The notes under the pieces: generated by a model
The model's input: the letters and a program-made list of their open reading frames with translations, nothing else
The model's database searches: none
What the model was told of the DNA's origin: nothing
Part shown: in pieces, positions 7,965 through 50,759 of the stretch
Numbering within the stretch: the first letter of the stretch is position 1
Layout of the letters: every line of letters starts with the position of its first letter
Made by a program: the position numbers and the translations under genes
Source of the DNA: an uncultured delta proteobacterium
GTDB lineage: Bacteria > Desulfobacterota > Binatia > Binatales > Binataceae
DNA: 64,000 nt
Direction of reading: 5' to 3'
NCBI GenBank assembly: GCA_963842085.1
Contig: CAWJET010000001.1
Span: 1,504,001-1,568,000, forward strand

Positions 7965-8999
7965 CTACGCCGTTGCTGCACTCCTTGCCGGTTCCGCGCG
8001 GAGTGCGGTCAGTTCGCGGCTGGCGCGCGGCAGGAACACCACTCCGATCAGTGCGTTGCACAGCATGAACGTCAGTTGTGCCGCCAGACTGTAGGCGACG
8101 ATCTTCGCCGCCGACGCGTTGCTCGAGAAGAACAGCAGCCACGCCGCCTGACTGGTCCCCAGATGAGCCACCGCAATCGGCAGCGCGGCGGCCAGGAATA
8201 CCAGCGGCAGAAACAGCATCAGCTTTGCGAACGGGATCGCGATTCCGTACAGCGCCAGCGCGTAGTATTGCGCGACGACCGACGCGAGGAACGTCGGCGC
8301 CTTGATCGCCAGCACTGCCAGGTAGTCGAGCGGACGCGCCTGGATGAACGTCGCCAGCAATGCGCCCGCCCTTCCCGTCTCGACCCAGTTGCGAATCGCC
8401 GCGCTGCGCCGCGCAATCGCGAAGAAAATCATGATTCCGGCGAGCAATGCCCATGCCGCGATATACACGATGCGAAGTATTGCAACGATTTTTATCTGCG
8501 CGTCGCCAACCGGCGTGTAGAAGATTACCCCGAGCGTCGAGAACAGAAAGAGTTGGTAAATCTCGAGCAGCGCGATGAACAGCACCGAGCTGAGCGCGCT
8601 CAGGAAGCTGACTCCGGCCTTGCGATGCAGATAATACGCTACGCCGCCCTGCGCGAGGCTCGTGTTGATCAGCGCCAGCACGTACATGCTCGCGCGTATC
8701 GGTAATATGTCGCCGTACCGCATCCGCGCGTTGAAGCGCCGCACCACCCAGGTCAGACACGCCGAATCGATCGCGCAGTAAAACAGGGAGTACGGCATGA
8801 ACACCGCCAGGAACTCGAGCACCGGCACTTGCGACAGCGCTTGCTCGACTTTGCGGATCGGGATGCGCCAGAAGATCAGCGCGAATATAGCGATGGTCCC
8901 GAGATACGGAATCGCCTTGCGCCACAGCGGCGTCGCGCGCGGTGCCGGAACTGCATCGCCTGTCGCGGCGCTCGAGTCGGGGCTCGGCCCGGCGCTCAT
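7965..8999 (-). CDS. Lysylphosphatidylglycerol-synthase-like TM domain (flippase-like) membrane protein
   Basis: Many hydrophobic segments; LPIAVAHLGTSQAAW motif typical of YbhN/UPF0104-like proteins. Confidence 0.75.
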   Translation of the reverse strand: MSAGPSPDSSAATGDAVPAPRATPLWRKAIPYLGTIAIFALIFWRIPIRKVEQALSQVPVLEFLAVFMPYSLFYCAIDSACLTWVVRRFNARMRYGDILPIRASMYVLALINTSLAQGGVAYYLHRKAGVSFLSALSSVLFIALLEIYQLFLFSTLGVIFYTPVGDAQIKIVAILRIVYIAAWALLAGIMIFFAIARRSAAIRNWVETGRAGALLATFIQARPLDYLAVLAIKAPTFLASVVAQYYALALYGIAIPFAKLMLFLPLVFLAAALPIAVAHLGTSQAAWLLFFSSNASAAKIVAYSLAAQLTFMLCNALIGVVFLPRASRELTALRAEPARSAATA

Positions 9000-9427
9000 G
9001 CGTCGCCAAGCCGGATCGCGGCGGTTCCGATCAGCACCTGTTCGCCGCGTTGATTGTCGACGTGGATCTGCAACTCGGCGCGATCCGCATCGACCGAGAC
9101 GATCTTCGCGTGCGAGGTCAAAGTGTCGCCGTAGAGCACCGGCCTGGTAAGCGACACTTCGATACGTCCGCCGCGGACGAAGCGCATGCCGAAGTTGTCG
9201 GCGAGGAATTGCGCGATTACCGCGATAGTCTGCTCGCCGCCGGCGATCGGCGCGACGAAGCCCGCCTTGCGCGCCGCGTCCTTGTCGTCGTGGATGTTTC
9301 CGCGCGGACGGCGCCGCGGCGGCTGCTCGATGCCTTCGTAGTAGGCTTTCGCCGCGGCCTCATCGAGCAGGTACGGCCCCGAAACCAGCTCCGCGCCGCT
9401 TCGAATCTCACCGCGCCAAGCACTCAT
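8996..9427 (-). CDS. MaoC-like hotdog-fold dehydratase
   Basis: NIHDDKDAARKAGFVAPIAGG, RPVLYGDTL. Confidence 0.85.
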   Translation of the reverse strand: MSAWRGEIRSGAELVSGPYLLDEAAAKAYYEGIEQPPRRRPRGNIHDDKDAARKAGFVAPIAGGEQTIAVIAQFLADNFGMRFVRGGRIEVSLTRPVLYGDTLTSHAKIVSVDADRAELQIHVDNQRGEQVLIGTAAIRLGDA

Positions 9428-26340: not shown

Positions 26341-27294
26341 TCAGCAAGAAGTTGTTTCACTTCGTCTTTGGGGACGGAGACGATGCGCCGGAGTGCCGTG
26401 CGCATCTTGGACAGTGGCAGTGATTTTTTCTTCATAGGGAGATTCCTTCAATGACAGACGATAATCAGAATGCTGGCAATACGGGTGGCGCAGCGCAGGG
26501 AAATCAACAAGGACAAAATCCCGCGCCGGTAACACCTCCCGTCCCAGTGCCTCCTGCGACCACCACCAACCCTCGACAGACACTGAATACTGTGCAAGAG
26601 GAGGTGAGTCCGCGCGATACGCTGAACACGTCACAGCACAACAATCAGTCAGAGGCGCGGCGCTCGTTGAATATAATTCAGAAGGGCGGGAAGTGATCGA
26701 CCGAACAAGCGTCATTGCGACGGCAGCCGCCAAAGTAATTGCCAAGAGCACGCCCGCGAGCGCGACTAGGATCTGAGCCATGATCATTTGATCAGCCTTG
26801 TGATTTGCGATCCGATGATTGTCCTGTAGAACTTGGTGCATGGCGCTTATGTAGAATCGCTTGAGTGAATCGGAGCCTTGTAATACTCGATCGCGCGGGA
26901 ACCATGTTCCCTCACTTAGTTGGCTCCAATTCTGTGCACCGTGAAGTGCCATTAGAGAAAAGAGACACGCACTTCCTGCGGCCAAAGCCACGATCACGAT
27001 TGCGATCAGCTCAAGCCACGAATGCGTCCAAGTAGCACCGCGCATTAACAGAAGCGCCAGTATCGCACTACTATATCCAACAAGTGTCGTGGCCTTAGAA
27101 TCTATGAGCCCGACACGCTCCTCGTTCGCCGTAAGCAACATCTGTCCGAAATCGAACAGTTCCGTTGTTACGTCTTCCGCCGAATATTTCGCGAGAAGTT
27201 CATCGACTTCGGCTCCGGGCAATTCTATTGTCTTTGTCTTGCCCAAAACGGAATTTCGTAACCAGCGGCGCAATTCAGAAAAGTAGTTCTTCAT
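26341..27294 (-). CDS. IS passenger: three-TM protein resembling Pycsar effector (PycTM/DUF5706-like) architecture
   Basis: IDSKATTLVG followed by two TM helices, then NHRIANHKADQM followed by a third TM; ATGA overlap with the transposase stop. The family assignment is inference. Confidence 0.6.
   Translation of the reverse strand: MKNYFSELRRWLRNSVLGKTKTIELPGAEVDELLAKYSAEDVTTELFDFGQMLLTANEERVGLIDSKATTLVGYSSAILALLLMRGATWTHSWLELIAIVIVALAAGSACLFSLMALHGAQNWSQLSEGTWFPRDRVLQGSDSLKRFYISAMHQVLQDNHRIANHKADQMIMAQILVALAGVLLAITLAAAVAMTLVRSITSRPSELYSTSAAPLTDCCAVTCSAYRADSPPLAQYSVSVEGWWWSQEALGREVLPARDFVLVDFPALRHPYCQHSDYRLSLKESPYEEKITATVQDAHGTPAHRLRPQRRSETTSC
26451..26696 (+). CDS. IS passenger: 81-aa N/Q/P-rich peptide with a triple internal repeat
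   Basis: RBS AGGGAGA 8 nt upstream; repeats PRQTLNTVQ, PRDTLNTSQ, ARRSLNIIQ. Confidence 0.55.
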   Translation: MTDDNQNAGNTGGAAQGNQQGQNPAPVTPPVPVPPATTTNPRQTLNTVQEEVSPRDTLNTSQHNNQSEARRSLNIIQKGGK

Positions 27295-28211
27295 TGGGTC
27301 AATTCCTTGTAAGTAAGTCTTCTGCCATCGGCTTGAGCGAGCGCCAACGCAAAGCGATCCCCATCCCCGATTTTCCGTTGGTTGAATCGAAACGTCGCGT
27401 CGTCAAGGTAGCGATCAAGCTGCCACGGCATCACGAAATGATGCGTCCCATAAACCGTGCGCTTGAAGTTTGCCCAGAAACTCTCGATCCCGTTCGTATG
27501 GACCGCGCCACGCACATACTCCTCAGAATGGTTAATGACTTCGTGCGCGTAGTCTGCGTCTAGTCCGCGAAAGGCCGCTGCCTCATCGGTATAGAGGATC
27601 GCGCCTGATTCGACGTTACGACGAATCACACGTTGGAGCGTTTCCGCCCGTTCGTTAGGTACGGATTTAGCACGGATCTGCCCGTGCCTTGCGAGCAATC
27701 CGAAGACCACGGCTTTGCCAACGTTGCCCGTTCCACGATGCAAGCGTTTGCTGCGATGTTTGTTCTTCTCCAGTCCGCCGATGCCTGTAGTATCGCCTTC
27801 AACCGGCCCAGACATAGGCGTCTCGAAGCTGCCCGCCCTCAACGCGAGCCGGATTCGATGGAGCATGAACCATGCGGTCTTTTGTGTGACGCCTAGGGCC
27901 TTTGCCAGCCGGTGGGAGCTATAGCCCTTTGTCGAGCAAGTGAGCAGCCAGACGGCGGGGAGCCACTTATCGAGCGTAATCGGCGAATCTTCGAAGATGC
28001 TACCGACCTTCACCGAAAACTGTTTGCTGCATGATTTGGATTTGCAGCGCCAGATCGCCCGCGTTTGGATGAACCATACGTCTCTCGATCCGCAACCCCT
28101 TCGCGGGCATCTTACGCCGGTCGGCCAACGGCATTCGGCCAAATAGTTACGACAGATTTCTGGGTCTGCAAAGTATCGAATCGCTTCAATCAGTGTCCGT
28201 GGCGTCTTCAT
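27291..28211 (-). CDS. IS1595-family transposase
   Basis: N-terminal Zn ribbon CPRRGC...CKSKSC, TQKTAWFMLHRIR HTH, VEGD, YTDE, HTNGIESFW, RYLDDATFRFN. Confidence 0.95.
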   Translation of the reverse strand: MKTPRTLIEAIRYFADPEICRNYLAECRWPTGVRCPRRGCGSRDVWFIQTRAIWRCKSKSCSKQFSVKVGSIFEDSPITLDKWLPAVWLLTCSTKGYSSHRLAKALGVTQKTAWFMLHRIRLALRAGSFETPMSGPVEGDTTGIGGLEKNKHRSKRLHRGTGNVGKAVVFGLLARHGQIRAKSVPNERAETLQRVIRRNVESGAILYTDEAAAFRGLDADYAHEVINHSEEYVRGAVHTNGIESFWANFKRTVYGTHHFVMPWQLDRYLDDATFRFNQRKIGDGDRFALALAQADGRRLTYKELTQ

Positions 28212-28944: not shown

Positions 28945-30030
28945 ATGAAAGCCGCCGTTTTCCACGGGCCCAAGTTGCCCCTCAGTATCGAGGACGTCGA
29001 ACTCGACAAGCCGCAGGACCGCGAAGTCCTGATCAAAACCGTCGCCAGCGGCGTATGCCACAGCGACCTGCATTTCGTCGACGGATTCTACCCGTACCCT
29101 GCGCCCGCGGTGCTCGGCCACGAAGCCGCCGGCATCATCGAGGAAGTCGGCAAGCAGGTAACCTACGTGAAGCCGGGCGACCACGTGATCTGTTGCCTGT
29201 CGGTCTTTTGCGGCAACTGCGAGCAGTGCATGTCAGGGCATCCCAATCGATGCTCGAACAAGGCCGCCACCCAGCGCAACCCGCAGGACAAGCCGCGCAT
29301 CTCGCAGAAGGGCAAGCCCGTCTTCCAGTTCCTCGACATCTCGTCTTACTGCGAGAAGATGCTGCTGCATGAAAACGCGGTGGTGAAGATTCGCGAGGAC
29401 CTGCCGCTCGATCGCGCCGCGCTCATAGGATGCGGCGTCACCACCGGCGTCGGCGCGGTGCTCAATACCGCCAGGATCGAGCCCGGCTCGACGGTCGCGG
29501 TCTTCGGTGCGGGCGGCGTCGGACTCGCCGCAATCCAGGGCGCACGGATCGCGGGCGCGCGCAAAATAATCGCAGTCGATATGTTCGAGGGCAAGCTCGC
29601 GATGGCCAAGCGGCTCGGCGCGACCGACACCGTTGACGCGTCGAACAGCGACCCCGTCGATGAAATCCGCAAACTCACCGGCGGCGGCGTCGATTATTCA
29701 TTCGAAGCGATCGGCCTCAAGAAGGTCGCCGAGCAGGCGTTCAACTCGCTCAAGTCCGGCGGCACCGCGACCGTGATCGGCATGATCCCCATCGGCCAGA
29801 AGGTCGAAATCGACGGCTACATGTTCCTGACCGAGCGCAAACTGCAAGGTTCCAACATGGGCTCCAACCGCTTCCGCATCGACATGCCCCGTTACATCGA
29901 CTTCTACATGCAGGGCCGCCTCAACCTCGACGACATGATCAGCCAGCGCCGAAAACTCGAGGACGTCAACGACGCGTTCCGCGCTATGAAAGCCGGCGAA
30001 GTCGCACGCACTGTGTTGATGTTCAACTAG
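28945..30030 (+). CDS. Zn-dependent alcohol dehydrogenase (class III/formaldehyde dehydrogenase-like), copy 1
   Basis: GVCHSD, GHE, CGNCEQC...C structural Zn, GCGVTTG, GAGGVG. Confidence 0.95.
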   Translation: MKAAVFHGPKLPLSIEDVELDKPQDREVLIKTVASGVCHSDLHFVDGFYPYPAPAVLGHEAAGIIEEVGKQVTYVKPGDHVICCLSVFCGNCEQCMSGHPNRCSNKAATQRNPQDKPRISQKGKPVFQFLDISSYCEKMLLHENAVVKIREDLPLDRAALIGCGVTTGVGAVLNTARIEPGSTVAVFGAGGVGLAAIQGARIAGARKIIAVDMFEGKLAMAKRLGATDTVDASNSDPVDEIRKLTGGGVDYSFEAIGLKKVAEQAFNSLKSGGTATVIGMIPIGQKVEIDGYMFLTERKLQGSNMGSNRFRIDMPRYIDFYMQGRLNLDDMISQRRKLEDVNDAFRAMKAGEVARTVLMFN

Positions 30031-30065
30031 CGCGGATTCACTAAAAAGAGAGAGGAGCAATCCAG

Positions 30066-31151
30066 ATGAAAGCTGCTGTCTTTCACGGCCCCGGTCAGCC
30101 ACTCACCATCGAGCAGGTCGATATCGACGAACCCAGGGAGCGCGAAGTCGTCGTGCGCACGGTCGCCAGCGGCGTATGCCACAGCGATCTTCATTTCGTC
30201 GACGGCCTCTACATGTGGCCGACCCCCGCGATCCTCGGCCACGAGGCCGCCGGCGTCGTCGAGAAAGTCGGCTCGCAGGTCTCCTACCTCGAGCCCGGCA
30301 ATCACGTTATCGCGTGCCTCTCGGTCTTTTGCGGCTACTGCGAGGAGTGCATGTCCGGCCATCCCAACCTCTGCTCGAACAAGGCCGCCACGCAGCGCGG
30401 CGCCGGCGACAAGCCGCGCCTGTCGCAGAAGGGCAAGATGGTCAATCAGTTCGCCGACTTGTCGGGCTACGCCGAAAAAATGCTGCTGCATGAAAATGCG
30501 CTGGTGAAAATTTCCAACGACGTGCCGCTCGATCGCGCCGCGCTCATCGGATGCGGCGTCATGACCGGCGTCGGCGCCGCGCTTAACACCGCGAAGGTTG
30601 CGCCCGGCTCGACCGTCGCCGTGTTCGGCGCCGGCGGCGTCGGCCTCGCGATAATCCAGGGCGCGCGAATCGCGGGCGCGCGCATGATCGTCGCGGTCGA
30701 CAAGTTTCCATCCAAGCTCGAGCTCGCCAAAAAACTCGGCGCCACTCACGCCGTCGACGCGTCCAAGGGCGACGCGGTCGATCAGATTCGCTCCCTCACC
30801 GGCGGCGGCGTTGATTACTCGTTCGAAGCCATCGGGCTCAAGGTCGCAGCCGAGCAGGCTTACGAGTCAATCGTCGCCGGCGGCGTCGCCACGATCGTCG
30901 GGATGGTTCCGCTCGGGCAAAAGGTCGAAGTGGACGGCTTCTCGCTCCTGTTCGAGAAGCGCATCCAGGGATGCTTCATGGGCTCGAACCGCTTCCGCAT
31001 CGACATGCCGCGCATCATCGAGCTCTATCAGCAGGGACGGCTCGACCTTGACGACATGATCACGCGCCGCGGCAAACTCGAGGACGTCAACGAGGCCTTC
31101 CGCGCGATGAAGGCCGGCGAAGTCGCGCGCACAGTCCTGATGTTCGACTAG
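30066..31151 (+). CDS. Zn-dependent alcohol dehydrogenase, copy 2 (tandem paralog)
   Basis: Same motifs and the same 361-aa length as copy 1. Confidence 0.95.
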   Translation: MKAAVFHGPGQPLTIEQVDIDEPREREVVVRTVASGVCHSDLHFVDGLYMWPTPAILGHEAAGVVEKVGSQVSYLEPGNHVIACLSVFCGYCEECMSGHPNLCSNKAATQRGAGDKPRLSQKGKMVNQFADLSGYAEKMLLHENALVKISNDVPLDRAALIGCGVMTGVGAALNTAKVAPGSTVAVFGAGGVGLAIIQGARIAGARMIVAVDKFPSKLELAKKLGATHAVDASKGDAVDQIRSLTGGGVDYSFEAIGLKVAAEQAYESIVAGGVATIVGMVPLGQKVEVDGFSLLFEKRIQGCFMGSNRFRIDMPRIIELYQQGRLDLDDMITRRGKLEDVNEAFRAMKAGEVARTVLMFD

Positions 31152-32722: not shown

Positions 32723-36250
<3,528 letters not shown>

Positions 36251-36273: not shown

Positions 36274-36876
36274 TTACTTGAGCTGAACGCGAGGATGCGC
36301 GACGCCGTTGCGCCCGTTGCCGCCGTCGACCGCACGCAGCTCCACTGCCGCGGCCTCTTCGTGCGGGTGATACGCCTCGCATCGGATCATCACCTGGCGT
36401 TCGCGCGGCCCGTCCAGCTCAACCAGGAAGACGCGCTGCCACCTGCCCAGCGCGAGCCGGCCATCGATCACAGGAATCGTCTCGCTGGTCGCAAGCAGCA
36501 GATGCATCAAGTGCGAATGCGCGTTGGGCCGCTCGTCAGGCGCGATCGGCGGTTTGCGGCGGTTCATGTCGTTATGATGGTAGCCGCGGTCCGACGGGCA
36601 CAGCTCGCGCAGCATCTCCTTGAAGTCCTCGAGCAGTAGCTGTTCCGCTTCGTTGATCTTGATCGCCGCCGTCGTGTGGCGAGAGAACACCCTCACCGCG
36701 CCGCTCTCGACGGCGTTCGCCGCCAGATGCTCGTTGATGTGATCCGTGAGGTCGATGAATTGGATCGGCTCGACTGTGGCGATATCCAAAATCGAATCCG
36801 AGAGCACGATCGAATGCCGCGAGCGCGGTAGTCTCGGACGAAATGTCGTCCGCACGGGATAGGCGTTTTCTGGCAT
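36274..36876 (-). CDS. YjbQ / secondary thiamine-phosphate synthase family (UPF0047)
   Basis: HTTAAIKINE, NAHSHL, LGRWQRVFLVELDGPRER. Confidence 0.92.
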   Translation of the reverse strand: MPENAYPVRTTFRPRLPRSRHSIVLSDSILDIATVEPIQFIDLTDHINEHLAANAVESGAVRVFSRHTTAAIKINEAEQLLLEDFKEMLRELCPSDRGYHHNDMNRRKPPIAPDERPNAHSHLMHLLLATSETIPVIDGRLALGRWQRVFLVELDGPRERQVMIRCEAYHPHEEAAAVELRAVDGGNGRNGVAHPRVQLK

Positions 36877-36973
36877 TTGGGTTTCCTTGGATGAGATGCA
36901 ATCGATGAGCGTCGAATTATCGATCATCCAGCCTAGGCACCACCGGCGCGAGGAGCAATTCACATGATGCGAT

Positions 36974-38545: not shown

Positions 38546-38680
38546 TCTCTTGCCTGGCGCGACGCTGATCGAACCATAAACCCACTGCATGTATGGTAGT
38601 TGGGATCACCGCTGTAGAAAAGTATCCCGTAGCAAATTGTTGAGTGCAACGAGGAGATGAGAGACCTTTTAGACGTAGAG

Positions 38681-39766
38681 TGGAGTGAACCCCTAAAACT
38701 GGACAGCCGAGGAGCGTCGGATTGGACCGGGCGGTGGGCTTATCGGAGGATAGGCCATGGCACAGCATCGGAGTTTCAGCACGGAGTTCAAAGCTCGCGA
38801 AGGAGTTTCTCAACGGCCGCGCCGGCCTGCATGAGCTTGCGCGGCGCTACAGTCTGTCGTGCAATCTGATTCGGCTCTGGGTCCGCAAGTACGAGGCGGG
38901 CGAGTTCACCGACGAGATGGCCGAGAAAGTGCAGGTCGCCGAGTACGGGCGCGAGATCGCGGAGCTGGAACGCAAGGTCGGCCAGCTGACGATGGAGGTT
39001 GACCTCCTGAAAAAGGGGGGCGCAGTTGGGACCCCGGACCAGCGCCGGGAGCTACCTCCATCGTGAGCGGTCCAAAGCCGTCTCCGTTGCGCGGGGATGC
39101 CGAATCATGAAGCTGGCGCGCTCGACGTATTATTGCCGCGGCCGCCCGTCCAGTGCGCAAGTTCGTACGCACGACTGATAGTGATCACGACGGTCCGATC
39201 TTCCCCAATCTCGCCCGCGACCTGGTCCTGACCGGCCCCCATCAGTTGTGGGTCGGCGATATCCTATATCCGGATCGCCGCCGGCTTCGTCTATCTGGCC
39301 GTGATCCTCGACGCCTGGTCGCGTCGAGTGATCGGCTCGGACTCGGTCGGCAGATTGATACTCGGCTGACACTCGCTGCACTGCGGGCCGCGAGCGAGTC
39401 GCGCCGCCCGCCGCGGGGTTGCGTCCATCATTCCGACCGCGGTGCGCAGTACGTGAACCTTATCGCCGAAAACTTGTCGAGAACGGCCTGAGTTGGTTCG
39501 ATGAGTCGGCGCGGCAATCCTTACGACAACGGCAAGGCCGAGAGCTTCATGAAGACCCTCAAGTGCGAAGAGGTATATTTCAGCGACTACCGGACTTACG
39601 CCGACGTGATCGCGAGGCTTCCACACTTCATCGACGAGGTATACAACACCCGCAGACTGCACTCGGCTCTCGGCTGTCTCGCACCTATGCAGTTCGAGGA
39701 GCAACACGCCCGCGCCCTGGTCCAATCACCCACTTAACCACTGTCCAACCCGAGGGGTTCACTCCA
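38681..39766 (+). mobile_element. Degenerate IS3-family element
   Basis: TIRs TGGAGTGAACCCCT...TGGACAG and CTGTCCA...AGGGGTTCACTCCA; 3-bp TSD GAG; fragments of orfA (LERKVGQLTMEVDLLKKG) and orfB ([33 protein letters not shown]) broken by frameshifts and deletion. Confidence 0.92.
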
Positions 39767-40256
39767 GAGCCGGGCCGGATTTTTGCTCGAATTGCCCGCT
39801 GAAGAAACTCGAATTCACTTAGAAACTGAAATGGGTTCGTTTGGCAAAAGACGCAAAAACCATTCCTGGGCCGCCCTCATTGCGAGGCAAACAATGTTCT
39901 GTTCTTTACACCCACAAGCGGAACGTTCTTCAGCACGCTCATCCGTTTTGCAAGAAGACGAGCGCTTCGACTGCGCGAAATGAATCCGGTAAGTCGCGGG
40001 CCACCAAGGGACGGTTGCGCGCCACCAACAGCACCCAGCGGCGCCACGAGATCGCCAGCATCGGCAATGCCATTGCGACATAGCAGCTCGCCCAGCGGCA
40101 GCTACTACGAGCTCGTGTGGAACAATGTTGCTTACGCGCATGGTTTCGTCTCTGGAAGGGCACTGCAACCGGCTACTGCTGCGATAGCCCTCGGGGGCGG
40201 CACTGCAAAGAAGTTATCGCTACTCTGGGCACTTCGAACAATATCGTCGAAACCTA

Positions 40257-40995: not shown

Positions 40996-42183
40996 CTAAC
41001 CTCTTAACCAATTCGGAACCTCGATCAGGGATGATGCAGAGGTGGCGCTGGCGAATATTCGATCGTTGTTGATCATTATGGAAGACGACAAGACATCGCG
41101 AACATGACGCGAGACGCTGAACTCGCCTTCGTTGCGATAACCCGCCAGCCCACAAGCTAGCAGCGCGCTCATAACAGTCGCGGTGGCCAATTCCGAAGCG
41201 CTCACCTTGAGCAAATTCATCGCGTTTTGAAAATCAAGCGATTCAAGGTCGTCGGCCTGGTCTGCCGCAGCTTCGAATCTCTGCAGCGCCGACGCTACCA
41301 GCGCTCTCAATGAACGCGGCGACATACCGGCGCGGGTGAGATGAGCCGCGCCGAGCGGCAGCTGACCGCTCGTGCAGCGAGCAGAGGTGCGGACAAACGA
41401 TCGCGCGCGCTCCGTAGCACCGGCGGCAAGTCCTGCCCACACCGCGCTCCAAGTCAGATGCGCAACCGGCATCATCGTATGCGCTTGAATTTTCTGGTAG
41501 GACTCCGGCAGCACATGCTCGACCTCCCCGTTGCCCTTGAGCATGAAGCCGGCGCTGCAGGTGCCGCGCATGCCCAGCACGTCCCAGTCTACGATCGGAT
41601 CGAGTTGACATTGGTCCTTAAGGAACACCACCAAGATTTGGTCGGAAGGTAGCGCGTCGGCAGAGCGCCGTGCAGTGGTTAGGATCGCGTCGGCCTGGGC
41701 GCCGTACGACACGACGGTTGCGCTTTTCGTGAGTGCTATGCGCGAACCGGTTTGCTCCAAGGCGCAGGCGCTCGTGCGCAGATCACCACCACCCTGGCCT
41801 TCGGTCGTGGACGACGCAAGCAGCAACTGCTCCGTGCAAAGCCGCCGGAGAAAGCGCCTGTGCCACGCACTGCTTCGAGCGTGGCGGACGAGGATCGCGG
41901 CCATAATTTGGTGCATAGCGAAAATCAAGCCGCTTGACGCGCAGGCCCGCCCGAGCAGATAGCAAACATCCGCCGCGTCCGAGACGCTTGCTCCTTCTCC
42001 GCCGAGCTCAGTCGGAACCAGGATGCCGAGCAGCCGCTGGGCCCGGGCCGCGGAGAAGGCCTCTTGCGGAAAACGCGCTTCGCGATCGACGCGGTCAGCA
42101 TTCTGGGCGGCGACTGCAGCTGTGGCTTCAGCCCTCACCTTCAGATCGCCGTCGATAACGCAATTCTGTAGCATCTTAGCCAT
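40996..42183 (-). CDS. Acyl-CoA/acyl-ACP dehydrogenase family protein
   Basis: VDREARFP, CASSGLIFAMHQ, ASSTTE, WDVLGMRGTCS, MNLLKVSASE, GLAGYRN, MINNDRI. Confidence 0.92.
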   Translation of the reverse strand: MAKMLQNCVIDGDLKVRAEATAAVAAQNADRVDREARFPQEAFSAARAQRLLGILVPTELGGEGASVSDAADVCYLLGRACASSGLIFAMHQIMAAILVRHARSSAWHRRFLRRLCTEQLLLASSTTEGQGGGDLRTSACALEQTGSRIALTKSATVVSYGAQADAILTTARRSADALPSDQILVVFLKDQCQLDPIVDWDVLGMRGTCSAGFMLKGNGEVEHVLPESYQKIQAHTMMPVAHLTWSAVWAGLAAGATERARSFVRTSARCTSGQLPLGAAHLTRAGMSPRSLRALVASALQRFEAAADQADDLESLDFQNAMNLLKVSASELATATVMSALLACGLAGYRNEGEFSVSRHVRDVLSSSIMINNDRIFASATSASSLIEVPNWLRG

Positions 42184-42533
42184 ATACGCTTTCAGTACTT
42201 GATAGAGAGATAAAGGCAGATGTCGTGCGCGGCCTCAGTAAGCAGCGCAAGGCTGAGCCCAGCGGCCCGGAAGGAGTGGGGCCAATCCCCTTTTGGGCCG
42301 ACGTGGTGATGTTTATCCGGAGGGGCTGAAAACATCATGAACCCTCAACTTCTATCGTGGGCCCTAGAACAATTCGGCAACAGTCCGGCGGCTGGCACGC
42401 TGCATGAGCTGGCATTCCACGCACTTTCGTGTCCTGGTTCCGAAAGTAGGTGGAACTGATCATATGGACGCGATAAATCAATAATCTGCTGGCTACTATG
42501 GCACAAATACGCTATGATTAGTATTGTTAGTTC

Positions 42534-42797
42534 ATGGATAATTTCGACGGCTCGCCGGAACAGAGGATTACCAGAGTAGCGCAGCGACTGTTCCAGGAGC
42601 GCTCCATCACGCAATCGCTGCGCTCCGACGACAACTTCGTTGACGTTGGATTGACCTCGCTGGATTTGGTCAAACTTGTCCTTCGCGTCGAAGAAGAGTT
42701 TGGCCTCGAGCTACCCACAAGCGACATCACCCCCGCGCACTTTCGTTCGATCGCCACCATAAGCCGATTGGTTACCAAATTGCTCAACAAGGCCTAG
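42534..42797 (+). CDS. Stand-alone carrier protein (aminoacyl carrier protein type)
   Basis: FVDVGLTSLDLVKLVLRVEEEFG with phosphopantetheine Ser in GLTS; ITPAHFRSI. Confidence 0.9.
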   Translation: MDNFDGSPEQRITRVAQRLFQERSITQSLRSDDNFVDVGLTSLDLVKLVLRVEEEFGLELPTSDITPAHFRSIATISRLVTKLLNKA

Positions 42798-42960
42798 AGG
42801 GTTGCTGGAGACGCAGGCGAACGACCTCGGCCAAGAGCATACAAAATATTTTCACCCTCGACGGCCGTGTGTTCGCACCAGCCACGCGCCCTGGCCAAGG
42901 GATCGGCCGGTTGTCGAATGTCGGCTGCCGGGACTTCACGCCGCTTGGCAAGTGTGGCCC

Positions 42961-44412
42961 TCATTTCATCGCTGCCTGCAAGACGTCCACCAACTTCGCG
43001 ACGTCGTCTGTCGTCGTCTCGCCGTGGGTTACACAGATCCGGATCACTTCGCTACCTTCGAACGCTGCCGCCCCAACCCATGCACGGCCAGACGCAAGGA
43101 CCTGGTCCACGATCGATCGAACCTCGTTAGATCCGGGCGGGGGCTGGACGCAGAGCACGGCCAATGGCGATTCGTTGACAATCGACCAGCGCCTCGTTGT
43201 GAGGTCGGCCCCGAGCAGTGCGCTCAGCTCGATCGAGCGCTCGACGTGTTGCCCGTAGCCCGTCCATCCAGCTGCCGCGAGCGACAGGAACAGGCGCAGG
43301 CCCAGGAATCGTCGCGACCACTGAACTGATGTCACGTAGGGGTCAGAGCTGGGAATGTTCGAGGGCATAAAGGTGGTCGAAACCTGAAACGCGGACGATA
43401 GCACGTGCGGGTGCAAGGTGATGAACATCCCGCAGCCCATGGTCGTCGCAAACCATTTGTGAGCGTCGATCGTAACGGAATCCGCCCGTTCGATACCAGC
43501 GAGAACGTGCCGCAGCCGGTCAGAGGCAATGAGCGCGCCGCCCCAGGCCGCGTCGACGTGGAACCAGAGGTTATTTGATCGGGCCAGTTCGGCGCATGCC
43601 TCTAGAGGGTCGATCATTCCCGCGTTAGTGGTCCCGGCCGTGGCTGCGATCATGACGGGCACGCATCCGCTCGCGCGGTCATCGATCACCGCGTCTTTGA
43701 GTGCGGTTTGGTCCATGCGTCCGAGTCCGTCGGTCGCGATCAGACGCACCGCCGAGCGGCCGATCCCCGCCTGGTGCGCGATTTTAAGCCAGGCAAGATG
43801 GCTCTCCTGCGAGACGTAGAACACGGGGGCGCCGTCAAAGGCACGGGCACCCTTCGTCGCAAATTCTGGAGTGGCCCTGGTCAAGGCGCAAAGTAGAGCC
43901 GTGTAGTTCGCTTCGGATCCGCCAGCCGTGAAATGGCCCGCAGCCTCAGGCGGGAATCCGGCGCGCCGGGCGACAGAACGGATGACGTGAGCCTCTATCT
44001 CAACTGCAACCGGGGAGGTCGTCGAGGTCGCCAGCTGAGGATTGAACGCACCGGCGATCCGATCTGCGCATTGAGCAGGGAAGGTGGGAGCCGGATTGAA
44101 CAACCCGAAGTAGCGCGGGTGCGTCACATGGACTAGACCGTGCTCCATCTTCTCGATCGTCCACGATAACAATTGGCCGAGCGGGCGCGGCGTTCGAAAA
44201 TCGAAATCGGCGAGTTCGCTCCTGAAGTCGGCGAGGTTCAGATCAGGTGTGACCGGGCCTGCGGCTACGCGCTCATTGGCGCGCAGCAACTTCAGTGTCA
44301 GGAGATCGTCCCAACGCACGCGGTTTGCGGGCGTTGGAAAGAGATTCGATGCGTGTCCGGATGGCTCACGATGTTCTACGAGCTGCGAAACCGGTTTTCT
44401 GTCGTACGACAT
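42961..44412 (-). CDS. Group II PLP-dependent decarboxylase
   Basis: HPRYFG, GGSEANYTAL, ATAGTTNAGMIDPL, FHVDAAWGG, DAHKW (PLP Lys), QWSRR. Confidence 0.93.
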   Translation of the reverse strand: MSYDRKPVSQLVEHREPSGHASNLFPTPANRVRWDDLLTLKLLRANERVAAGPVTPDLNLADFRSELADFDFRTPRPLGQLLSWTIEKMEHGLVHVTHPRYFGLFNPAPTFPAQCADRIAGAFNPQLATSTTSPVAVEIEAHVIRSVARRAGFPPEAAGHFTAGGSEANYTALLCALTRATPEFATKGARAFDGAPVFYVSQESHLAWLKIAHQAGIGRSAVRLIATDGLGRMDQTALKDAVIDDRASGCVPVMIAATAGTTNAGMIDPLEACAELARSNNLWFHVDAAWGGALIASDRLRHVLAGIERADSVTIDAHKWFATTMGCGMFITLHPHVLSSAFQVSTTFMPSNIPSSDPYVTSVQWSRRFLGLRLFLSLAAAGWTGYGQHVERSIELSALLGADLTTRRWSIVNESPLAVLCVQPPPGSNEVRSIVDQVLASGRAWVGAAAFEGSEVIRICVTHGETTTDDVAKLVDVLQAAMK

Positions 44413-44469
44413 CGTAGCAATGTGCCCAGAAAAGGCCTCAAGCAACCGATGCGGCAGCGTCCATCTGGC

Positions 44470-45492
44470 TCACGCAGCTTGCGACGCATTGGCGGAATGC
44501 GGCGCCCTGGAACGGTCGCCTGGATGACGGTGCTCCACCAAATAAGACAACCAATTCGTGTACAAACGCACCGCCGGCTCATGCCAGTCATGCGCCAACT
44601 TTCTCTCCGCTTGCGGAAAATTCAACGCAATGTCAGTGCGGTGGGTTCGCAGCGTTCGCCGCCGGAACTCGTCAAATTCAGCTGCGGTCTCATCATGGAA
44701 ATAGCCCCGCGGCATGTCAGGGTATCGATCTCTTTCGCCAGCGACGAATTCGCGGAAGTCTCTGCGATATTCACGGAACAACGCCTCTGGGTCGTATTCC
44801 GGATGGCCTTGAAGGTAAATCGAGAGACTCCTCCTCTGCTTGACGAACATATCGGCACCCGCCTCGGGCGATCTCGACACAATGCAATAGTCTTTGGAAA
44901 CGAGCTCCTGCTCGGATAGATCGTTGTATCTCGAATGCGGCATGCACCATTGCGGTGCACTACCGGATACGACCACGTGGTCCGCGACCTTCGCGCACTC
45001 GAACACACCCCAAAGTTTCTCGCGGAACGGCCGCCGCTGTATTCCGTCCAGATGAAGGACGGCGGCATGCGCGGCAAGACACGACCAAACTGTCGAGGTA
45101 GTGTGGTCTTCCGCCCAATCCACGACTTTGGTCATGGTGGGCCAATAGGGTTCGTCCGATAGCACCAGTGCGTGCGGCTCCGTGCCGGTGACGATCAGGC
45201 CGTCGAGACGGTCCGCAAACATCTCGCCGATGTCCTCGTAGTGTTGGCTGACATACGTCCGGCCCGCCTCCGAGCGCCGCAGCTGCGGTATCGAGAAAAA
45301 CCTCACTACGATCAAAAGATCTCGTGACGCTTCGGCCAGCAGATCGCAGAATTGACGCTCCGTGGCTTGCAGAGCGGCGTCGGGCATGTTGTTGACGAGC
45401 CCGATCACTATGGGCGCCATCTCGCGGAGGTTCAACCGGCGCGTGACATCCCCCAGCGAGGCCCTGACCGGCCCCGACCGTATCTTGATCAT
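44470..45492 (-). CDS. metA: Homoserine O-acyltransferase, MetA family (divergent)
   Basis: IGLVNNMPD..L.ATERQF, DGLIVTGTEP, WSCLAAHA (catalytic Cys), PHSRY, QGHPEYD. Confidence 0.85.
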   Translation of the reverse strand: MIKIRSGPVRASLGDVTRRLNLREMAPIVIGLVNNMPDAALQATERQFCDLLAEASRDLLIVVRFFSIPQLRRSEAGRTYVSQHYEDIGEMFADRLDGLIVTGTEPHALVLSDEPYWPTMTKVVDWAEDHTTSTVWSCLAAHAAVLHLDGIQRRPFREKLWGVFECAKVADHVVVSGSAPQWCMPHSRYNDLSEQELVSKDYCIVSRSPEAGADMFVKQRRSLSIYLQGHPEYDPEALFREYRRDFREFVAGERDRYPDMPRGYFHDETAAEFDEFRRRTLRTHRTDIALNFPQAERKLAHDWHEPAVRLYTNWLSYLVEHRHPGDRSRAPHSANASQAA

Positions 45493-45517
45493 GTTTTTGC
45501 CCTACTGACGCCTTGCG

Positions 45518-46804
45518 CTATTTCGCATTGTCCAGTGCCCGATCGAGATCGGCGGTGATGTCGTCCGCGTGCTCGATTCCAATACTGAGTCTGATCATTT
45601 CCGGGGTGACCCCCGCCTTGCGCTGCTCCTCGGCGGACATCTGCCGGTGTGTCGTCGAGGCCGGGTGACACGCCAGTGATTTTGCATCGCCCAGATTGAC
45701 CAACCGCTTGATCAGCTTCAGCGCGTTGTAAAATTCAGCCGCGGCTCTGTATCCGCCTCGAATTCCGAAGGTCATCAGGGAGCAAGCCCGGCCGCCAAGA
45801 TATTTCCGGGCAAGCGGGTTATATGGATTATCCTCGAAGCCGACGTAGTTGACCCACTCGACCCGCTCGTGGTCGCGCAGGAACTCAGCCACGCGCCGTC
45901 CATTTTCGACGTGGCGATCGATTCGCAGCGCGACGGTCTCGATTCCCTGGAGCAACAGAAAAGCGCTCAGCGGCGACAGAACGGAGCCCATGGTCCGCTG
46001 ATACACGGTTCGACAGCGCGCGATGTAAGCGGCCGAACCAAAATGGTCGGTATACACTAAACCTTGGTAGGACGCGTCCGGTAGGTTGAACATCGGGAAG
46101 CGACTGGCGTGCTTTTGCCACGGGAACTTGCCGCTGTCGACGATGATCCCGCCCATCGTCGTTCCGTGACCTCCCATGAATTTCGTCAGGGAGTGGATGA
46201 CGATATCGGCGCCGTAGTCGAACGGGCGTAGCAGAATGGGCGTGGCGACCGTGTTGTCGACGATCAATGGAAAACCATGCTTGTGAGCGACGTTTGCCAG
46301 CGCTTCGAGGTCACAAATGTTCCCGGCGGGGTTTCCTACGCTCTCGCAGAAGAACGCTCGGGTATCCTCATTTACCAGCTGCTCCATCGCGTCTGGATGA
46401 TCGCTCTCGGCAAAGCGAACGCTGATCCCCAGCTGGGGCAGGACGTGTGCAAAGAGGGTATGGGTCGTTCCGTAAAGTTGCGGAACAGAGACGATGTTTT
46501 TGCCGCTTCCCGTTACGTTCAGAACGGAATAGTGCAGGGCCGCCTGCCCGCTGCTTACGCTGAGCGCTCCAACTCCGCCTTCGAGTGCGGCGACCCGCCG
46601 CTCGAGCACGTCATTGGTGGGATTGCTGATTCGTGAGTAGCGGTGTCCTTCGACTTCGAGGTTGAACAGGGCCGCGCCGTGCTCGGCACTGTCGAAAGCG
46701 TACGCTACGGTCTGATAGATGGGCACGGCGACCGCCCGCGTGGTGGGATCGACTTCATATCCGCCGTGGATAGCTATGGTTTCGTTTCGCACCCTGGCCA
46801 GCAT
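45518..46804 (-). CDS. metY: O-acetylhomoserine aminocarboxypropyltransferase (sulfhydrylase)
   Basis: PIYQTVAY, YSRISNPT, VDNTVATP, HSLTKFMGGHG (PLP Lys), NLGDAKSLACHPASTTH, IRLSIGIEH. Confidence 0.93.
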   Translation of the reverse strand: MLARVRNETIAIHGGYEVDPTTRAVAVPIYQTVAYAFDSAEHGAALFNLEVEGHRYSRISNPTNDVLERRVAALEGGVGALSVSSGQAALHYSVLNVTGSGKNIVSVPQLYGTTHTLFAHVLPQLGISVRFAESDHPDAMEQLVNEDTRAFFCESVGNPAGNICDLEALANVAHKHGFPLIVDNTVATPILLRPFDYGADIVIHSLTKFMGGHGTTMGGIIVDSGKFPWQKHASRFPMFNLPDASYQGLVYTDHFGSAAYIARCRTVYQRTMGSVLSPLSAFLLLQGIETVALRIDRHVENGRRVAEFLRDHERVEWVNYVGFEDNPYNPLARKYLGGRACSLMTFGIRGGYRAAAEFYNALKLIKRLVNLGDAKSLACHPASTTHRQMSAEEQRKAGVTPEMIRLSIGIEHADDITADLDRALDNAK

Positions 46805-48977: not shown

Positions 48978-49103
48978 CAGGCCTGAATTGCCCAGGCAGG
49001 TTCAGATAGTCCGCGTGTTCCCCGTCAGCACAAGTTGGACAATTCGAGGCGATTGAGGAAGAGAGGGTTTTTGGCTCATCTTTAACCGCGGAAGGAGCGG
49101 TAG

Positions 49104-49478
49104 ATGAGATCGAAAATCGATGCGCAGTCGGATGGGGCGGAAAAGGCGGTACGCGACATAAGGCGGGCGACCCGCCGGCACTTCTCGGCTGAGGACAAGG
49201 TCCGGATCGTGATCGCCGGCCTGCGCGGCGAGGATAGCGTGGCCGAGTTGTGCCGCAAGGAAGGGATCAACCAGAACCTCTACTATCGCTGGTCCAAGGA
49301 CTTCCTGGAGGCGGGCAAGAGGCGGCTGGCCGGCGATACCGCGCGTGAAGCGACCAGCGATGAAGTCAAGGAGCTGCGGGCGGAGAGCCATCAGCTCAAG
49401 GAACTGCTGGCCGAACTGATGATGGAGAACCGCCTGCTCAAAAAAAGCGTGCTGGCGGATGGGGAGTCCGATATATGA
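49104..49478 (+). CDS. IS3-family transposase OrfA
   Basis: RRHFSAEDKVRIV, ELCRKEGI..NLYYRWSK HTH, ENRLLKKS. Confidence 0.93.
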   Translation: MRSKIDAQSDGAEKAVRDIRRATRRHFSAEDKVRIVIAGLRGEDSVAELCRKEGINQNLYYRWSKDFLEAGKRRLAGDTAREATSDEVKELRAESHQLKELLAELMMENRLLKKSVLADGESDI

Positions 49479-50488
49479 GGTACGCGGCCGCCGAGAAGCT
49501 GGAGATCATCCGGCTGGTCGAGCAGTCGTCGCTGCCGGTGCGGCGCACCCTGGAGCAGATCGGCATCCCACGGTCCACCTTCTATTGCTGGTACGATCGC
49601 TATCGAACTCGCGATGATGAAGGGCTGGAGGATCGCACGCCGGCGCCGCGGCGGGTGTGGAACAAGCTCCCAGCTGCAGTTACTCAGGCCGTGCTCGAGC
49701 TTGCGCTCAAAGAACCGCAGCTATCGCCGCGGGAGTTGGCGGTCTCGTTCGTCGACCAGCAGCAGTACTTCGTCTCGGAAGCCTCAGTTTATCGGCTGCT
49801 GAAGGCGCACGACCTGATCACCAGCCCGGCCTTCATCTTGATGAAGGCAGCCGACAGCTTCGCCCATCCAACCACCGCACCCAATCAACTCTGGCAGACC
49901 GACTTTACCTACCTGCGGGTGATCGGCTGGGGCTGGTTCTATCTGTCGACTGTCCTTGATGACTTCTCGCGCTATATCCTGGCCTGGAAGCTGTGTACCA
50001 CCATGACTGCCACCGATGTCTCCGACACCCTCGCGATGGCGCTGCGCAACTCCGGGTTGGAGCGCGTCCGCGTCCGGCACCGGCCGCGCCTGCTGAGCGA
50101 CAACGGACCGTCGTACGTGTCGGCCCAGCTTGGCTCCTGGCTCGCGGAGCATGGCATGATGCATACCCGCGGCAAGCCCTATCACCCGATGACCCAGGGT
50201 AAGATCGAACGTTACCATCGTTCGATGAAGAACCAGATCCTGCTCGAGAACTACTACCTGCCCGGTCAGCTCGAAGCGCGCCTGGCCGAGTTCGTCGACT
50301 ACTACAACTCGCGCCGCTACCACGAAAGTCTCAACAACCTGACCCCGGCCGACGTCTACTTCGGCCGAGGTCCCGCGATTCTGTCACGGAGGAAAAATGC
50401 CAAACTGAAAACCATCGAAGCCAGACGCCGGCTGCATCATTCGTTCGCAGCCAAAGGTTCAACTCAGATGGACCAGATCCTCTCTTAA
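49475..50488 (+). CDS. IS3-family transposase OrfB (rve DDE)
   Basis: WQTDFTY, LSDNG, GKIERYH, YNSRRYHESL. Confidence 0.95.
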   Translation: MRYAAAEKLEIIRLVEQSSLPVRRTLEQIGIPRSTFYCWYDRYRTRDDEGLEDRTPAPRRVWNKLPAAVTQAVLELALKEPQLSPRELAVSFVDQQQYFVSEASVYRLLKAHDLITSPAFILMKAADSFAHPTTAPNQLWQTDFTYLRVIGWGWFYLSTVLDDFSRYILAWKLCTTMTATDVSDTLAMALRNSGLERVRVRHRPRLLSDNGPSYVSAQLGSWLAEHGMMHTRGKPYHPMTQGKIERYHRSMKNQILLENYYLPGQLEARLAEFVDYYNSRRYHESLNNLTPADVYFGRGPAILSRRKNAKLKTIEARRRLHHSFAAKGSTQMDQILS

Positions 50489-50528
50489 TTCCTGTGCCAA
50501 CTTGTCCAATAGGTTCTGACGACGTACA

Positions 50529-50759
50529 CTTCTCGGCGAAAAAATTTTCTAGAGCGCCATGGGGATCCAAGCTGGCTAGTATACCAGCGCGAAAATGCTC
50601 AAAATCGGCGGGGTCCTCGCCCGGCAAAACCACGTCGAGCGCCGTAAACCCGTGTTTCGTTGCATTCATCGATACTCTTGTCTTTCCGGCAGGGGTGCGC
50701 GGGCCTGTGCTCCGTTGAGCATTGAGTCGGTTGGCTGCGACCTGGTGGTCACTGCTCAT
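50529..50759 (-). pseudogene. Conserved hypothetical gene (ANRxNAxxSTGPRT family) truncated by the IS
   Basis: MSSDHQVAANRLNAQRSTGPRTPAGK...NATKHG...LPGEDP; the frame runs into the IS end at 50528. Confidence 0.8.

What the first reader, a model, noticed from the sequence alone, without database searches (positions are those of the whole stretch)
40996..46804. metY-metA-PLP decarboxylase operon joined to an aminoacyl carrier protein and acyl-CP dehydrogenase: cryptic amino-acid-derived pathway
Seen: co-oriented metY, a divergent metA and a group II decarboxylase, converging on a GLTS-type carrier protein that is divergent from an acyl-CoA dehydrogenase. Known: the carrier/dehydrogenase layout matches loci of SerRS-like amino acid:[carrier protein] ligases (Bradyrhizobium Bll0957/Bsr0959, Agrobacterium Atu2573/Atu2571), whose end product is unknown to me. 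MetA makes O-acylhomoserine and MetY transfers its aminocarboxypropyl group to a nucleophile. Inference: not plain Met synthesis but acylation, gamma-replacement and decarboxylation yielding an aminopropyl compound, coupled to carrier-tethered oxidation.
Basis: partly seen in the sequence, partly recalled or inferred. Interest (0 to 1): 0.75.

Follow-up and report, generated by a model that had tools for sequence, protein, structure and literature searches.

The report
Truncated homoserine-amine gene cluster fragment
The five genes are real, but here they are a cut-down, relocated piece of a much larger orphan gene cluster common in soil bacteria: its three homoserine-processing enzymes look fully functional, while the carrier-protein branch has lost the enzyme that loads it.

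Summary
All five genes are present exactly as described.

**The cluster elsewhere.** In eight other Candidatus Binatus genomes the same genes occur. In the six whose flanks I fetched, they sit in a 12-15 gene cluster. In that cluster the ACAD-fold gene is followed by a true amino acid:[carrier protein] ligase (NF005479, 415 bits).

**What this genome lacks.** It has no ligase anywhere. Synteny stops at the gene edges. The fragment lies between mobile-element DNA, next to metH, an adjacency seen in this genome only. Its carrier protein has evolved about 4.8 times faster than in sister lineages, while the trio evolves at normal rate.

**Evidence that metY-metA-decarboxylase is an accessory unit:**
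- It occurs in 9 of 47 genus genomes.
- It accompanies the decarboxylase in 62 of 80 loci from four phyla.
- It coexists with a separate MetX in 5 of 5 complete chromosomes tested.

This supports a dedicated homoserine-to-amine route rather than plain methionine synthesis. The nucleophile and the product are unknown.

This scan has met the same cassette before on other DNA (four earlier notes).

The parts
45518..46804 (-). MetY-type O-acylhomoserine aminocarboxypropyltransferase, first gene of the trio
   Evidence: PF01053 and TIGR01326 above cut-off. It is 85-90% identical in 8 other Binatus genomes. It differs at 0 of 55 family-invariant columns.
44470..45492 (-). MetA-type homoserine O-acyltransferase
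   Evidence: PF04204; NF003776 384 bits against a cut-off of 358. It is the only PF04204 gene in the genome, and the family occurs in 9 of 47 genus genomes.
42961..44445 (-). Group II PLP-dependent amino-acid decarboxylase, substrate unknown
   Evidence: PF00282. Below the cut-off of every named NCBIfam model; the best is DABA decarboxylase at 173.6 against 900. Orthologues at 59-82% identity in 80 fetched loci. More than 7,210 metagenome relatives, all with generic names.
42534..42797 (+). Small carrier protein (aminoacyl carrier type), probably orphaned
   Evidence: PF00550. NF005480 scores 43.5 bits against a cut-off of 72. The GLTSLD serine is kept. The window branch is 4.8 times the sister branch.
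40996..42183 (-). ACAD-fold flavoprotein; dehydrogenase or oxygenase not resolved
   Evidence: PF02771 and PF00441. It is about equally distant from true ACADs and from the DszC, DnmZ and nitrososynthase oxygenases. The window differs at 1 of 88 invariant columns, Q223H.
42184..42533 (.). Divergent intergenic region between the ACAD and carrier genes
   Evidence: Sequence read. The same divergent layout occurs in six Binatus loci.
38681..39767 (.). Remnant of a repeated element on the ACAD-side flank, beyond the conserved metH-GMD core, which ends near 38546
   Evidence: this stretch matches several unlinked places in other Binatus genomes at 79-86% identity. No ORF of 150 aa or more lies here.
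49006..50535 (+). IS element on the metY-side flank (rve-family transposase at 49475-50488)
   Evidence: Pfam rve. Five further 100%-identical copies in this genome.
32723..36250 (+). metH, B12-dependent methionine synthase; neighbour by rearrangement, not part of the cluster
   Evidence: All five MetH domains match. In the seven other cluster-bearing genomes compared, metH and the cluster lie on different contigs.

Best explanation
The stretch is a truncated, relocated fragment of a widespread accessory biosynthetic cluster.

**The working part is metY-metA-decarboxylase.** I read it as an autonomous three-enzyme unit that turns homoserine into an amine:
1. MetA O-acylates homoserine. The family assignment is shown; the reaction is inferred.
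2. MetY replaces the acyl group at the gamma carbon with a nucleophile (inferred; nucleophile unknown).
3. The group II decarboxylase removes the alpha-carboxylate, giving a 3-substituted propylamine (inferred, and so is the order of steps).

**In full-length relatives** this unit sits with two other modules. One is ACP, an adenylating enzyme, an SDR and a long-chain acyl-CoA synthetase. The other is a carrier protein, an ACAD-fold flavoprotein, an amino acid:[carrier protein] ligase and a SnoaL-like protein. The cluster often lies beside polysaccharide genes.

**In this genome** the ligase and every other accessory gene are gone. The carrier and ACAD genes are most likely orphaned leftovers, so the carrier-tethered step no longer runs.
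For: **Truncation**
- The six Binatus loci hold WecG, ACP2, AMP455, SDR, AMP603, (P450), MetY-MetA-DC, SnoaL, CP, ACAD, ligase and a thioesterase.
- Window similarity to them ends at 41010 and 46793.
- No trace of the other genes was found in the flanks or the genome.
- ACAD never occurs without the ligase: 32 of 32 loci.

**Relocation**
- The flanks are mobile-element DNA, and metH adjacency is unique to this genome.

**Relaxed carrier branch**
- Window-to-sister branch ratios are CP 4.82, ACAD 1.40, DC 1.16, MetA 0.93 and MetY 1.18.
- The window differs at 0 invariant columns in the trio proteins, against 1 each in ACAD and CP.

**The trio is accessory and dedicated**
- MetA occurs in 9 of 47 genus genomes, the same 9 that hold the 85-90% identical MetY.
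- 10 other genomes carry a separate metY-metX pair.
- A cystathionine gamma-synthase (CGS)-family PLP enzyme is conserved in 42 of 47.
- MetY and MetA flank the decarboxylase in 62 of 80 loci from Binatota, Pseudomonadota, Gemmatimonadota and Acidobacteriota.
- 5 of 5 complete chromosomes with the trio also hold a MetX elsewhere, and 3 of 5 a further MetY.
- The trio occurs without any other cluster gene in at least 3 loci with full flanks: L071, L106 and L109.

**Chemical precedent**
- Gamma-replacement by N-nucleophiles is reported for LolC and Mur24, and Mur24-type transfer is followed by decarboxylation to an aminopropyl group (passages read in PMC9533460 and PMC10491745).
Against: - No product, nucleophile or substrate is shown.
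- MetA and MetY pass the cut-offs of ordinary methionine-pathway models, and MetY is the most conserved gene of the set. They could therefore also, or only, make homocysteine.
- This genome has no second MetY. Its MetX-like gene is frameshifted in the assembly, although contigs of 2 of 4 runs carry the in-frame form.
- In Binatus, cluster-type MetY/MetA (9 genomes) and the housekeeping metY-metX pair (10 genomes) never co-occur. That pattern would also fit substitution of one route by the other.
- The decarboxylase could act first and supply the amine nucleophile.
- The carrier and ACAD genes are still intact ORFs, and the carrier keeps its serine. 'Orphaned' is an inference from rates on an 87-residue protein.
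Confidence: 0.6

Rival explanations
1. Plain methionine biosynthesis. MetA and MetY make homocysteine by direct sulfhydrylation for the nearby MetH. The decarboxylase and the carrier/ACAD genes are unrelated passengers.
For: - MetA (NF003776) and MetY (TIGR01326) score above their curated cut-offs.
- This is the only MetA and the only close MetY in the genome.
- metH lies 5 kb away.
- The MetX-like gene is frameshifted in the assembly.
- Cluster-type and housekeeping metY sets are mutually exclusive in the genus.
Against: - 28 of 47 genus genomes have neither set, while a CGS-family enzyme is present in 42 of 47.
- The decarboxylase is co-conserved with both genes in 62 of 80 loci across four phyla.
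- 5 of 5 complete chromosomes hold a separate MetX, and 3 of 5 a separate MetY.
- metH adjacency is unique to this genome.
- The MetX-like frameshift is a CCC/CC length difference, and contigs of 2 of 4 runs are in frame.
- No SAM or other riboswitch was found; this is weak evidence.
Confidence: 0.2
2. All five genes still work together. The carrier protein would be loaded in trans by another adenylating enzyme, and its cargo oxidised by the ACAD-fold enzyme.
For: - All five ORFs are intact.
- The carrier keeps the GLTSLD serine.
- The ACAD keeps 87 of 88 family-invariant residues.
- The genome holds other AMP-binding enzymes.
Against: - There is no NF005479-type ligase and no homologue of the relatives' ligase in the genome.
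- No examined locus pairs the ACAD with a different loader: 32 of 32 have the ligase.
- The carrier's branch is 4.8 times longer than its sisters'.
- The best AMP455 match in the genome is only 25% identical.
Confidence: 0.1
3. The whole fragment is decaying, non-functional DNA left by a rearrangement.
For: - Mobile-element flanks.
- Lower G+C than the window's upstream part.
- Loss of at least eight cluster genes.
Against: - No stop or frameshift in any of the five genes.
- The trio evolves at the sister rate and keeps every invariant column.
- Near-identical copies occur in contigs of 7 soil runs from 2 studies, some of them possible sources of this DNA.
Confidence: 0.07

Closest known systems
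Amino acid:[carrier protein] ligase system of Bradyrhizobium (Bll0957 ligase, Bll0958 'acd', Bsr0959 carrier protein; Mocibob et al. 2010 and 2013, known to me only through the review PMC9437257 and recall)
   Same: A small carrier gene diverges from an ACAD-fold gene. In Binatus relatives the ACAD gene is followed by a ligase that passes NF005479. The carrier's best NCBIfam model is NF005480; that this model represents the ligase's cognate carrier family is my inference from the adjacent model numbering.
   Different: This genome has no ligase. The carrier scores 43.5 bits against a cut-off of 72. In 27 of the 32 ligase-bearing loci the system lies beside the metY-metA-decarboxylase trio, a link I did not find described. 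The 2022 review says the biological role is unknown (passage read).
Direct-sulfhydrylation methionine pathway (MetA or MetX plus MetY)
   Same: The same two enzyme families, above the curated cut-offs.
   Different: Here they are an accessory, horizontally spread pair fused into an operon with a decarboxylase. They coexist with a separate MetX, and sometimes a separate MetY, in complete genomes.
Mur24/Mur23 (muraymycin aminopropyl installation) and LolC/LolD (loline)
   Same: The same chemical logic: a PLP enzyme transfers a 3-amino-3-carboxypropyl unit to a nucleophile, and decarboxylation follows (passages in PMC10491745 and PMC9533460).
   Different: Mur24 uses SAM and resembles ACC synthases. 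LolC is fungal. Here the donor would be O-acylhomoserine made by a dedicated MetA, and the decarboxylase is a group II enzyme. This is a likeness in mechanism only; membership was not tested or claimed.
dat-ddc (2,4-diaminobutyrate aminotransferase plus decarboxylase) route to 1,3-diaminopropane
   Same: The best named model for the decarboxylase is the RhbB-type DABA decarboxylase. A clade of 8 orthologues lies next to a class III aminotransferase instead of MetA/MetY.
   Different: The decarboxylase scores 173.6 bits against a cut-off of 900. The aminotransferase falls in the unnamed omega-transaminase subfamily PRK07481, not in a Dat or EctB model. A diaminobutyrate substrate is therefore only a lead.

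Membership tests
MetA homoserine O-acyltransferase (PF04204 / NF003776) | Whole-protein score above the curated cut-off | tested here: met
   PF04204 227.9 bits against 27. NF003776 384.1 against 358. TIGR01001 (succinyl) 162 against 495, and NF047918 (acetyl) 150 against 460.5, are not met, so the acyl donor is open.
MetY O-acetylhomoserine aminocarboxypropyltransferase (TIGR01326) | Whole-protein score above the curated cut-off | tested here: met
   604.8 bits against 495.1. The equivalog NF004757 scores 665 against 790 and is not met.
MetA/MetY as the housekeeping methionine route | Sole homoserine-activating and sulfhydrylating genes, conserved across the genus | tested here: not met
   MetA occurs in 9 of 47 genus genomes. 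A CGS-family enzyme occurs in 42 of 47. A MetX-like gene is present in this genome. A separate MetX is present in 5 of 5 complete trio-bearing chromosomes.
L-2,4-diaminobutyrate decarboxylase (NF052646) | Score above the curated cut-off | tested here: not met
   173.6 bits against 900. PanP scores 136.6 against 606. Only membership of group II, PF00282, is met.
Amino acid:[carrier protein] ligase system | Truncated class II SerRS-like ligase (NF005479) present | tested here: not met
   The five PF00587 matches in the genome lie in open frames of 441-650 aa, too long for the ~300-aa ligase; two were scanned and are HisRS and GlyRS. tblastn with the relatives' ligase finds nothing at E 1e-4 in the genome, or at E 5 in the flanks. 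The feature is met in relatives at 415 bits.
Amino acid:[carrier protein] ligase system | Cognate small carrier protein with a phosphopantetheine serine | tested here: inconclusive
   PF00550 is met and the serine is kept. NF005480 scores 43.5 against 72. Loading cannot be tested with these tools.
Amino acid:[carrier protein] ligase system | ACAD-fold gene adjacent to and divergent from the carrier gene | tested here: met
   Layout seen.
Acyl-CoA/ACP dehydrogenase (true dehydrogenase) | Catalytic glutamate base and all three ACAD domains | tested here: inconclusive
   The N- and C-terminal domains match, but no middle-domain match was listed. The stretch aligned to the usual C-terminal base region reads IMINND. 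Oxygenases of the same fold score as well as dehydrogenases.

The most novel reading that the evidence does not exclude
The metY-metA-decarboxylase trio would be a SAM-independent way of making or installing a 3-aminopropyl-type amine from homoserine: O-acylhomoserine, then gamma-replacement by an N or S nucleophile, then decarboxylation. In full-length clusters that amine would be joined to a carrier-bound amino acid and a fatty or hydroxy acid, and perhaps N-oxygenated by the ACAD-fold, P450 or heme-oxygenase-like partners. The product would decorate a surface polysaccharide or lipid. If so, this would give the first biological role for the amino acid:[carrier protein] ligases, which have lacked one since 2010.
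Probability: 0.3. Interest if true: 0.8.

Novelty: new variant of a known kind. Interest (0 to 1): 0.55.

Why it matters
All the enzyme families are known, but their combination is not described in the papers I could search. The decarboxylase family alone has more than 7,210 relatives in metagenomes, none with a specific name.

The trio is linked in many soil lineages to amino acid:[carrier protein] ligases, whose role a 2022 review still calls unknown.

This window offers a natural minimal version. The trio stands alone after the carrier branch lost its loader. That separates what the trio does by itself from what the full cluster does, and makes a three-gene expression experiment enough to find the amine.

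Tried and rejected
- **Rfam.** A scan of 30000-56000 at E up to 1 gave 0 matches, so there is no riboswitch evidence either way.
- **Promoters and terminators.** Scans were at chance level: 3 found against 3.4 expected, and 11 against 10.4.
- **Expression.** No RNA holder was listed among the sequencing runs, so expression was not addressed.
- **Decarboxylase substrate.** PDB sequence searches gave no close solved relative. The best hit scores 185 bits, and tryptophan, GADL1, DesA, DABA and GAD enzymes all score alike.
- **ACAD chemistry.** A profile search did not separate dehydrogenase from oxygenase.
- **Diaminobutyrate idea.** I considered that the aminotransferase-linked decarboxylase clade proves a diaminobutyrate substrate. 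I rejected this as proof because the aminotransferase is an unnamed omega-transaminase subfamily and its neighbours give no coherent context.
- **metH adjacency.** Considered as evidence for methionine synthesis and rejected, because it is unique to this genome.
- **Literature.**
  -, on the trio with a decarboxylase or gene cluster, gave one irrelevant paper each.
  -, on the ligase, gave only citing papers.
  - The 2010 PNAS paper is not held.
  - Supplementary files were not consulted.
- **Not run.** No structure prediction or complex prediction was run.


Full report
**Observation**

The five ORFs are at the stated coordinates.
- MetY (45518-46804, minus strand) passes TIGR01326 at 604.8 bits against a cut-off of 495.
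- MetA (44470-45492, minus) passes NF003776 at 384 against 358.
- The 494-aa protein at 42961-44445 (minus) is a group II PLP decarboxylase (PF00282, E 2e-59). It is below the cut-off of every named decarboxylase model.
- The 87-aa protein at 42534-42797 (plus) is a PP-binding carrier.
- The 395-aa protein at 40996-42183 (minus) has the ACAD N- and C-terminal domains.

The trio genes are 24-25 bp apart. The decarboxylase and carrier genes converge, and the carrier and ACAD genes diverge.

**What the relatives show**

The window lies in a 4.93 Mb, two-contig genome. Titles of close relatives place it in Candidatus Binatus.
- A genome search with the decarboxylase found orthologues at 74-81% identity in 6 of the 36 other genomes of the genus sampled. 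Everything else was 33% identical or less.
- All six fetched loci carry the five genes in the same order, inside a larger conserved set:
  - a WecG-type glycosyltransferase, a second ACP, a 455-aa adenylating enzyme and a FabG-like SDR;
  - a long-chain acyl-CoA synthetase (NF006134, 745 bits);
  - a P450 in four of the six;
  - MetY-MetA-decarboxylase;
  - a SnoaL-like protein, then the carrier protein;
  - the ACAD-fold protein, a 305-aa protein and a thioesterase.
- The 305-aa protein passes NF005479, amino acid--[acyl-carrier-protein] ligase (415 bits against 357).

**What this genome lacks**
- The five PF00587 matches in the genome lie in open frames of 441-650 aa, too long for a ligase of about 300 aa; the two I scanned are HisRS and GlyRS.
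- tblastn with the relatives' ligase, SnoaL and ACP2 finds nothing in the genome at E 1e-4. The best match for the 455-aa adenylating enzyme is 25% identical. The flanks hold nothing even at E 5.
- DNA similarity to the six loci stops at 41010 and 46793, the outer edges of the ACAD and metY genes.
- On the ACAD side, the genus-wide conserved core (metH, sometimes a UPF0047 gene, GDP-mannose dehydratase) ends near 38546. A stretch follows that matches scattered repeats in other genomes.
- On the metY side lies an IS element with five further identical copies in this genome.
- In seven other cluster-bearing genomes, metH and the cluster are on different contigs. The metH adjacency is therefore a local rearrangement, not a functional link.

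**State of the carrier branch**
- Across 80 loci holding decarboxylase orthologues, the ACAD-fold gene and the ligase were each found in 32, always together. The window is the only case seen of the ACAD without the ligase.
- A three-point branch comparison against two sisters and three outgroups gave these window-to-sister ratios: carrier 4.82, ACAD 1.40, decarboxylase 1.16, MetA 0.93, MetY 1.18.
- The window differs at no family-invariant column in the trio proteins (0 of 68, 55 and 18). It differs at one each in the ACAD (Q223H, of 88) and the carrier (L35F, of 10).
- Both genes are still open, and the carrier keeps its GLTSLD serine.
- I read the carrier branch as recently orphaned. This rests partly on a short protein.

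**Is the trio ordinary methionine synthesis?**

Within the genus (47 genomes, including two unpublished ones, G018 and G023, which lack the cluster):
- PF04204 occurs in 9 genomes. These are the same 9 that hold a MetY 85-90% identical to the window's.
- Ten other genomes hold a metY (48-50% identical) next to a strong MetX.
- 28 genomes have neither.
- A CGS-family PLP enzyme is present in 42 of 47, including this genome.

This genome also has a MetX-like gene. In the assembly it carries a one-base frameshift in a C run. Laid contigs of 2 of 4 soil runs lack that base, which restores the frame.

Outside the genus:
- 80 loci from Binatota, Pseudomonadota, Gemmatimonadota and Acidobacteriota were fetched with decarboxylases 59-82% identical.
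- MetY was within 10 kb in 69 loci, MetA in 64 and both in 62. These are lower bounds, because many contigs are short.
- In five complete chromosomes that carry the trio, MetA is present only as the cluster copy. A MetX lies elsewhere in 5 of 5, and a further MetY in 3 of 5, once next to MetX.

The trio behaves as a dedicated, mobile paralogue set.

Against this reading:
- Both enzymes look canonical.
- This genome has no second MetY.
- Cluster-type and housekeeping sets never co-occur in Binatus.

A contribution to homocysteine supply therefore cannot be excluded.

**Mechanism**

The family assignments are shown. The rest is inferred.
- The most economical reading is homoserine, then O-acylhomoserine (MetA), then a gamma-substituted 2-aminobutyrate (MetY), then a 3-substituted propylamine (decarboxylase).
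- Reviews I read in passages report gamma-replacement with N-nucleophiles for LolC and Mur24. They describe Mur24-type transfer followed by decarboxylation as the source of an aminopropyl linker. This is a likeness in logic, not membership.
- The order is not fixed. The decarboxylase could instead make the amine that MetY uses.

A lead on the substrate:
- In a tree of 73 decarboxylases, a clade of 8 (SH-aLRT 100) lies next to a class III aminotransferase instead of MetA/MetY. It is nested among trio-linked enzymes.
- One member (L084) reads MetY-aminotransferase-decarboxylase-carrier-ACAD-ligase.
- That pattern recalls dat-ddc and a diaminobutyrate substrate. However, the aminotransferase belongs to an unnamed omega-transaminase subfamily, and its surroundings are uninformative.

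The ACAD-fold protein is about as close to the DszC, DnmZ and nitrososynthase oxygenases as to true dehydrogenases. The stretch aligned to the usual catalytic-base region reads IMINND. 'Dehydrogenase' is therefore not established.

**Wider cluster**
- The ACP2, AMP455, SDR and AMP603 module accompanies the decarboxylase in about 50 of 80 loci.
- The carrier, ACAD, ligase and SnoaL module accompanies it in about 30, together with the first module in 18-25.
- In two betaproteobacterial loci the genes other than MetA (missing there) lie in one tight array, co-directional except the carrier gene.
- Glycosyltransferases and sugar transferases flank several loci.
- A roughly 220-aa family without a Pfam match lies beside the trio in 19 loci and is absent from this genome.
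- The trio stands with no other cluster gene in at least three loci with full flanks: L071, L106 and L109. This fits autonomy of the trio here.

**Known or new**
- A 2022 review states that the biological role of carrier-protein aminoacylation by these ligases is unknown (passage).
- My searches found no paper on a metY-metA-decarboxylase unit. The library lacks most subscription journals, and the 2010 paper on the ligases is not held.
- Earlier notes of this scan describe the same cassette in other genomes, inside polysaccharide loci. I confirmed parts of that independently.

**Verdict**

The trio is very likely a dedicated homoserine-derived pathway. In this genome it is uncoupled from the carrier branch, which has lost its ligase.

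I rate it a new variant of known kinds of chemistry. It is of moderate interest here and of higher interest for the full-length clusters.

Noticed in passing
window 49006-50535: A 1.5 kb IS element (rve-family transposase) has five further 100%-identical copies in this genome and copies at about 90% identity in other Binatus genomes. It is probably active.
   Followed up: partly
L032:2380 (G000:C1, near 1853570): The MetX-like gene has a one-base difference in a C run. The assembly and contigs of two runs are frameshifted, while contigs of two other runs are in frame. This is either a polymorphism or a homopolymer error.
   Followed up: yes
L073:6741-7403 and 18 other loci: A conserved family of about 220 aa with no Pfam match lies beside the trio in 19 of 80 loci.
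   Followed up: partly
L065, L072, L084, L091, L094, L095, L098: A clade of decarboxylase orthologues is paired with a PRK07481-type omega-aminotransferase instead of MetA/MetY.
   Followed up: partly
L030 (G032:C14), about 8273-9294: In one Binatus relative MetA is split into three pieces and the ligase is fragmentary. This is either a broken copy or assembly errors.
   Followed up: no
window 28945-31151: Two tandem 361-aa zinc alcohol dehydrogenase paralogues lie next to an IS1595 transposase at 27291-28211.
   Followed up: no
window 36274-36963: The UPF0047 gene between metH and GDP-mannose dehydratase is present in only some Binatus genomes. In many others the DNA match skips it.
   Followed up: no
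L004 (G000:C2) and window 631-1140: The genome has a HisRS on contig 2 and another PF00587 protein at the start of the window. It also has a dimeric-type GlyRS.
   Followed up: no
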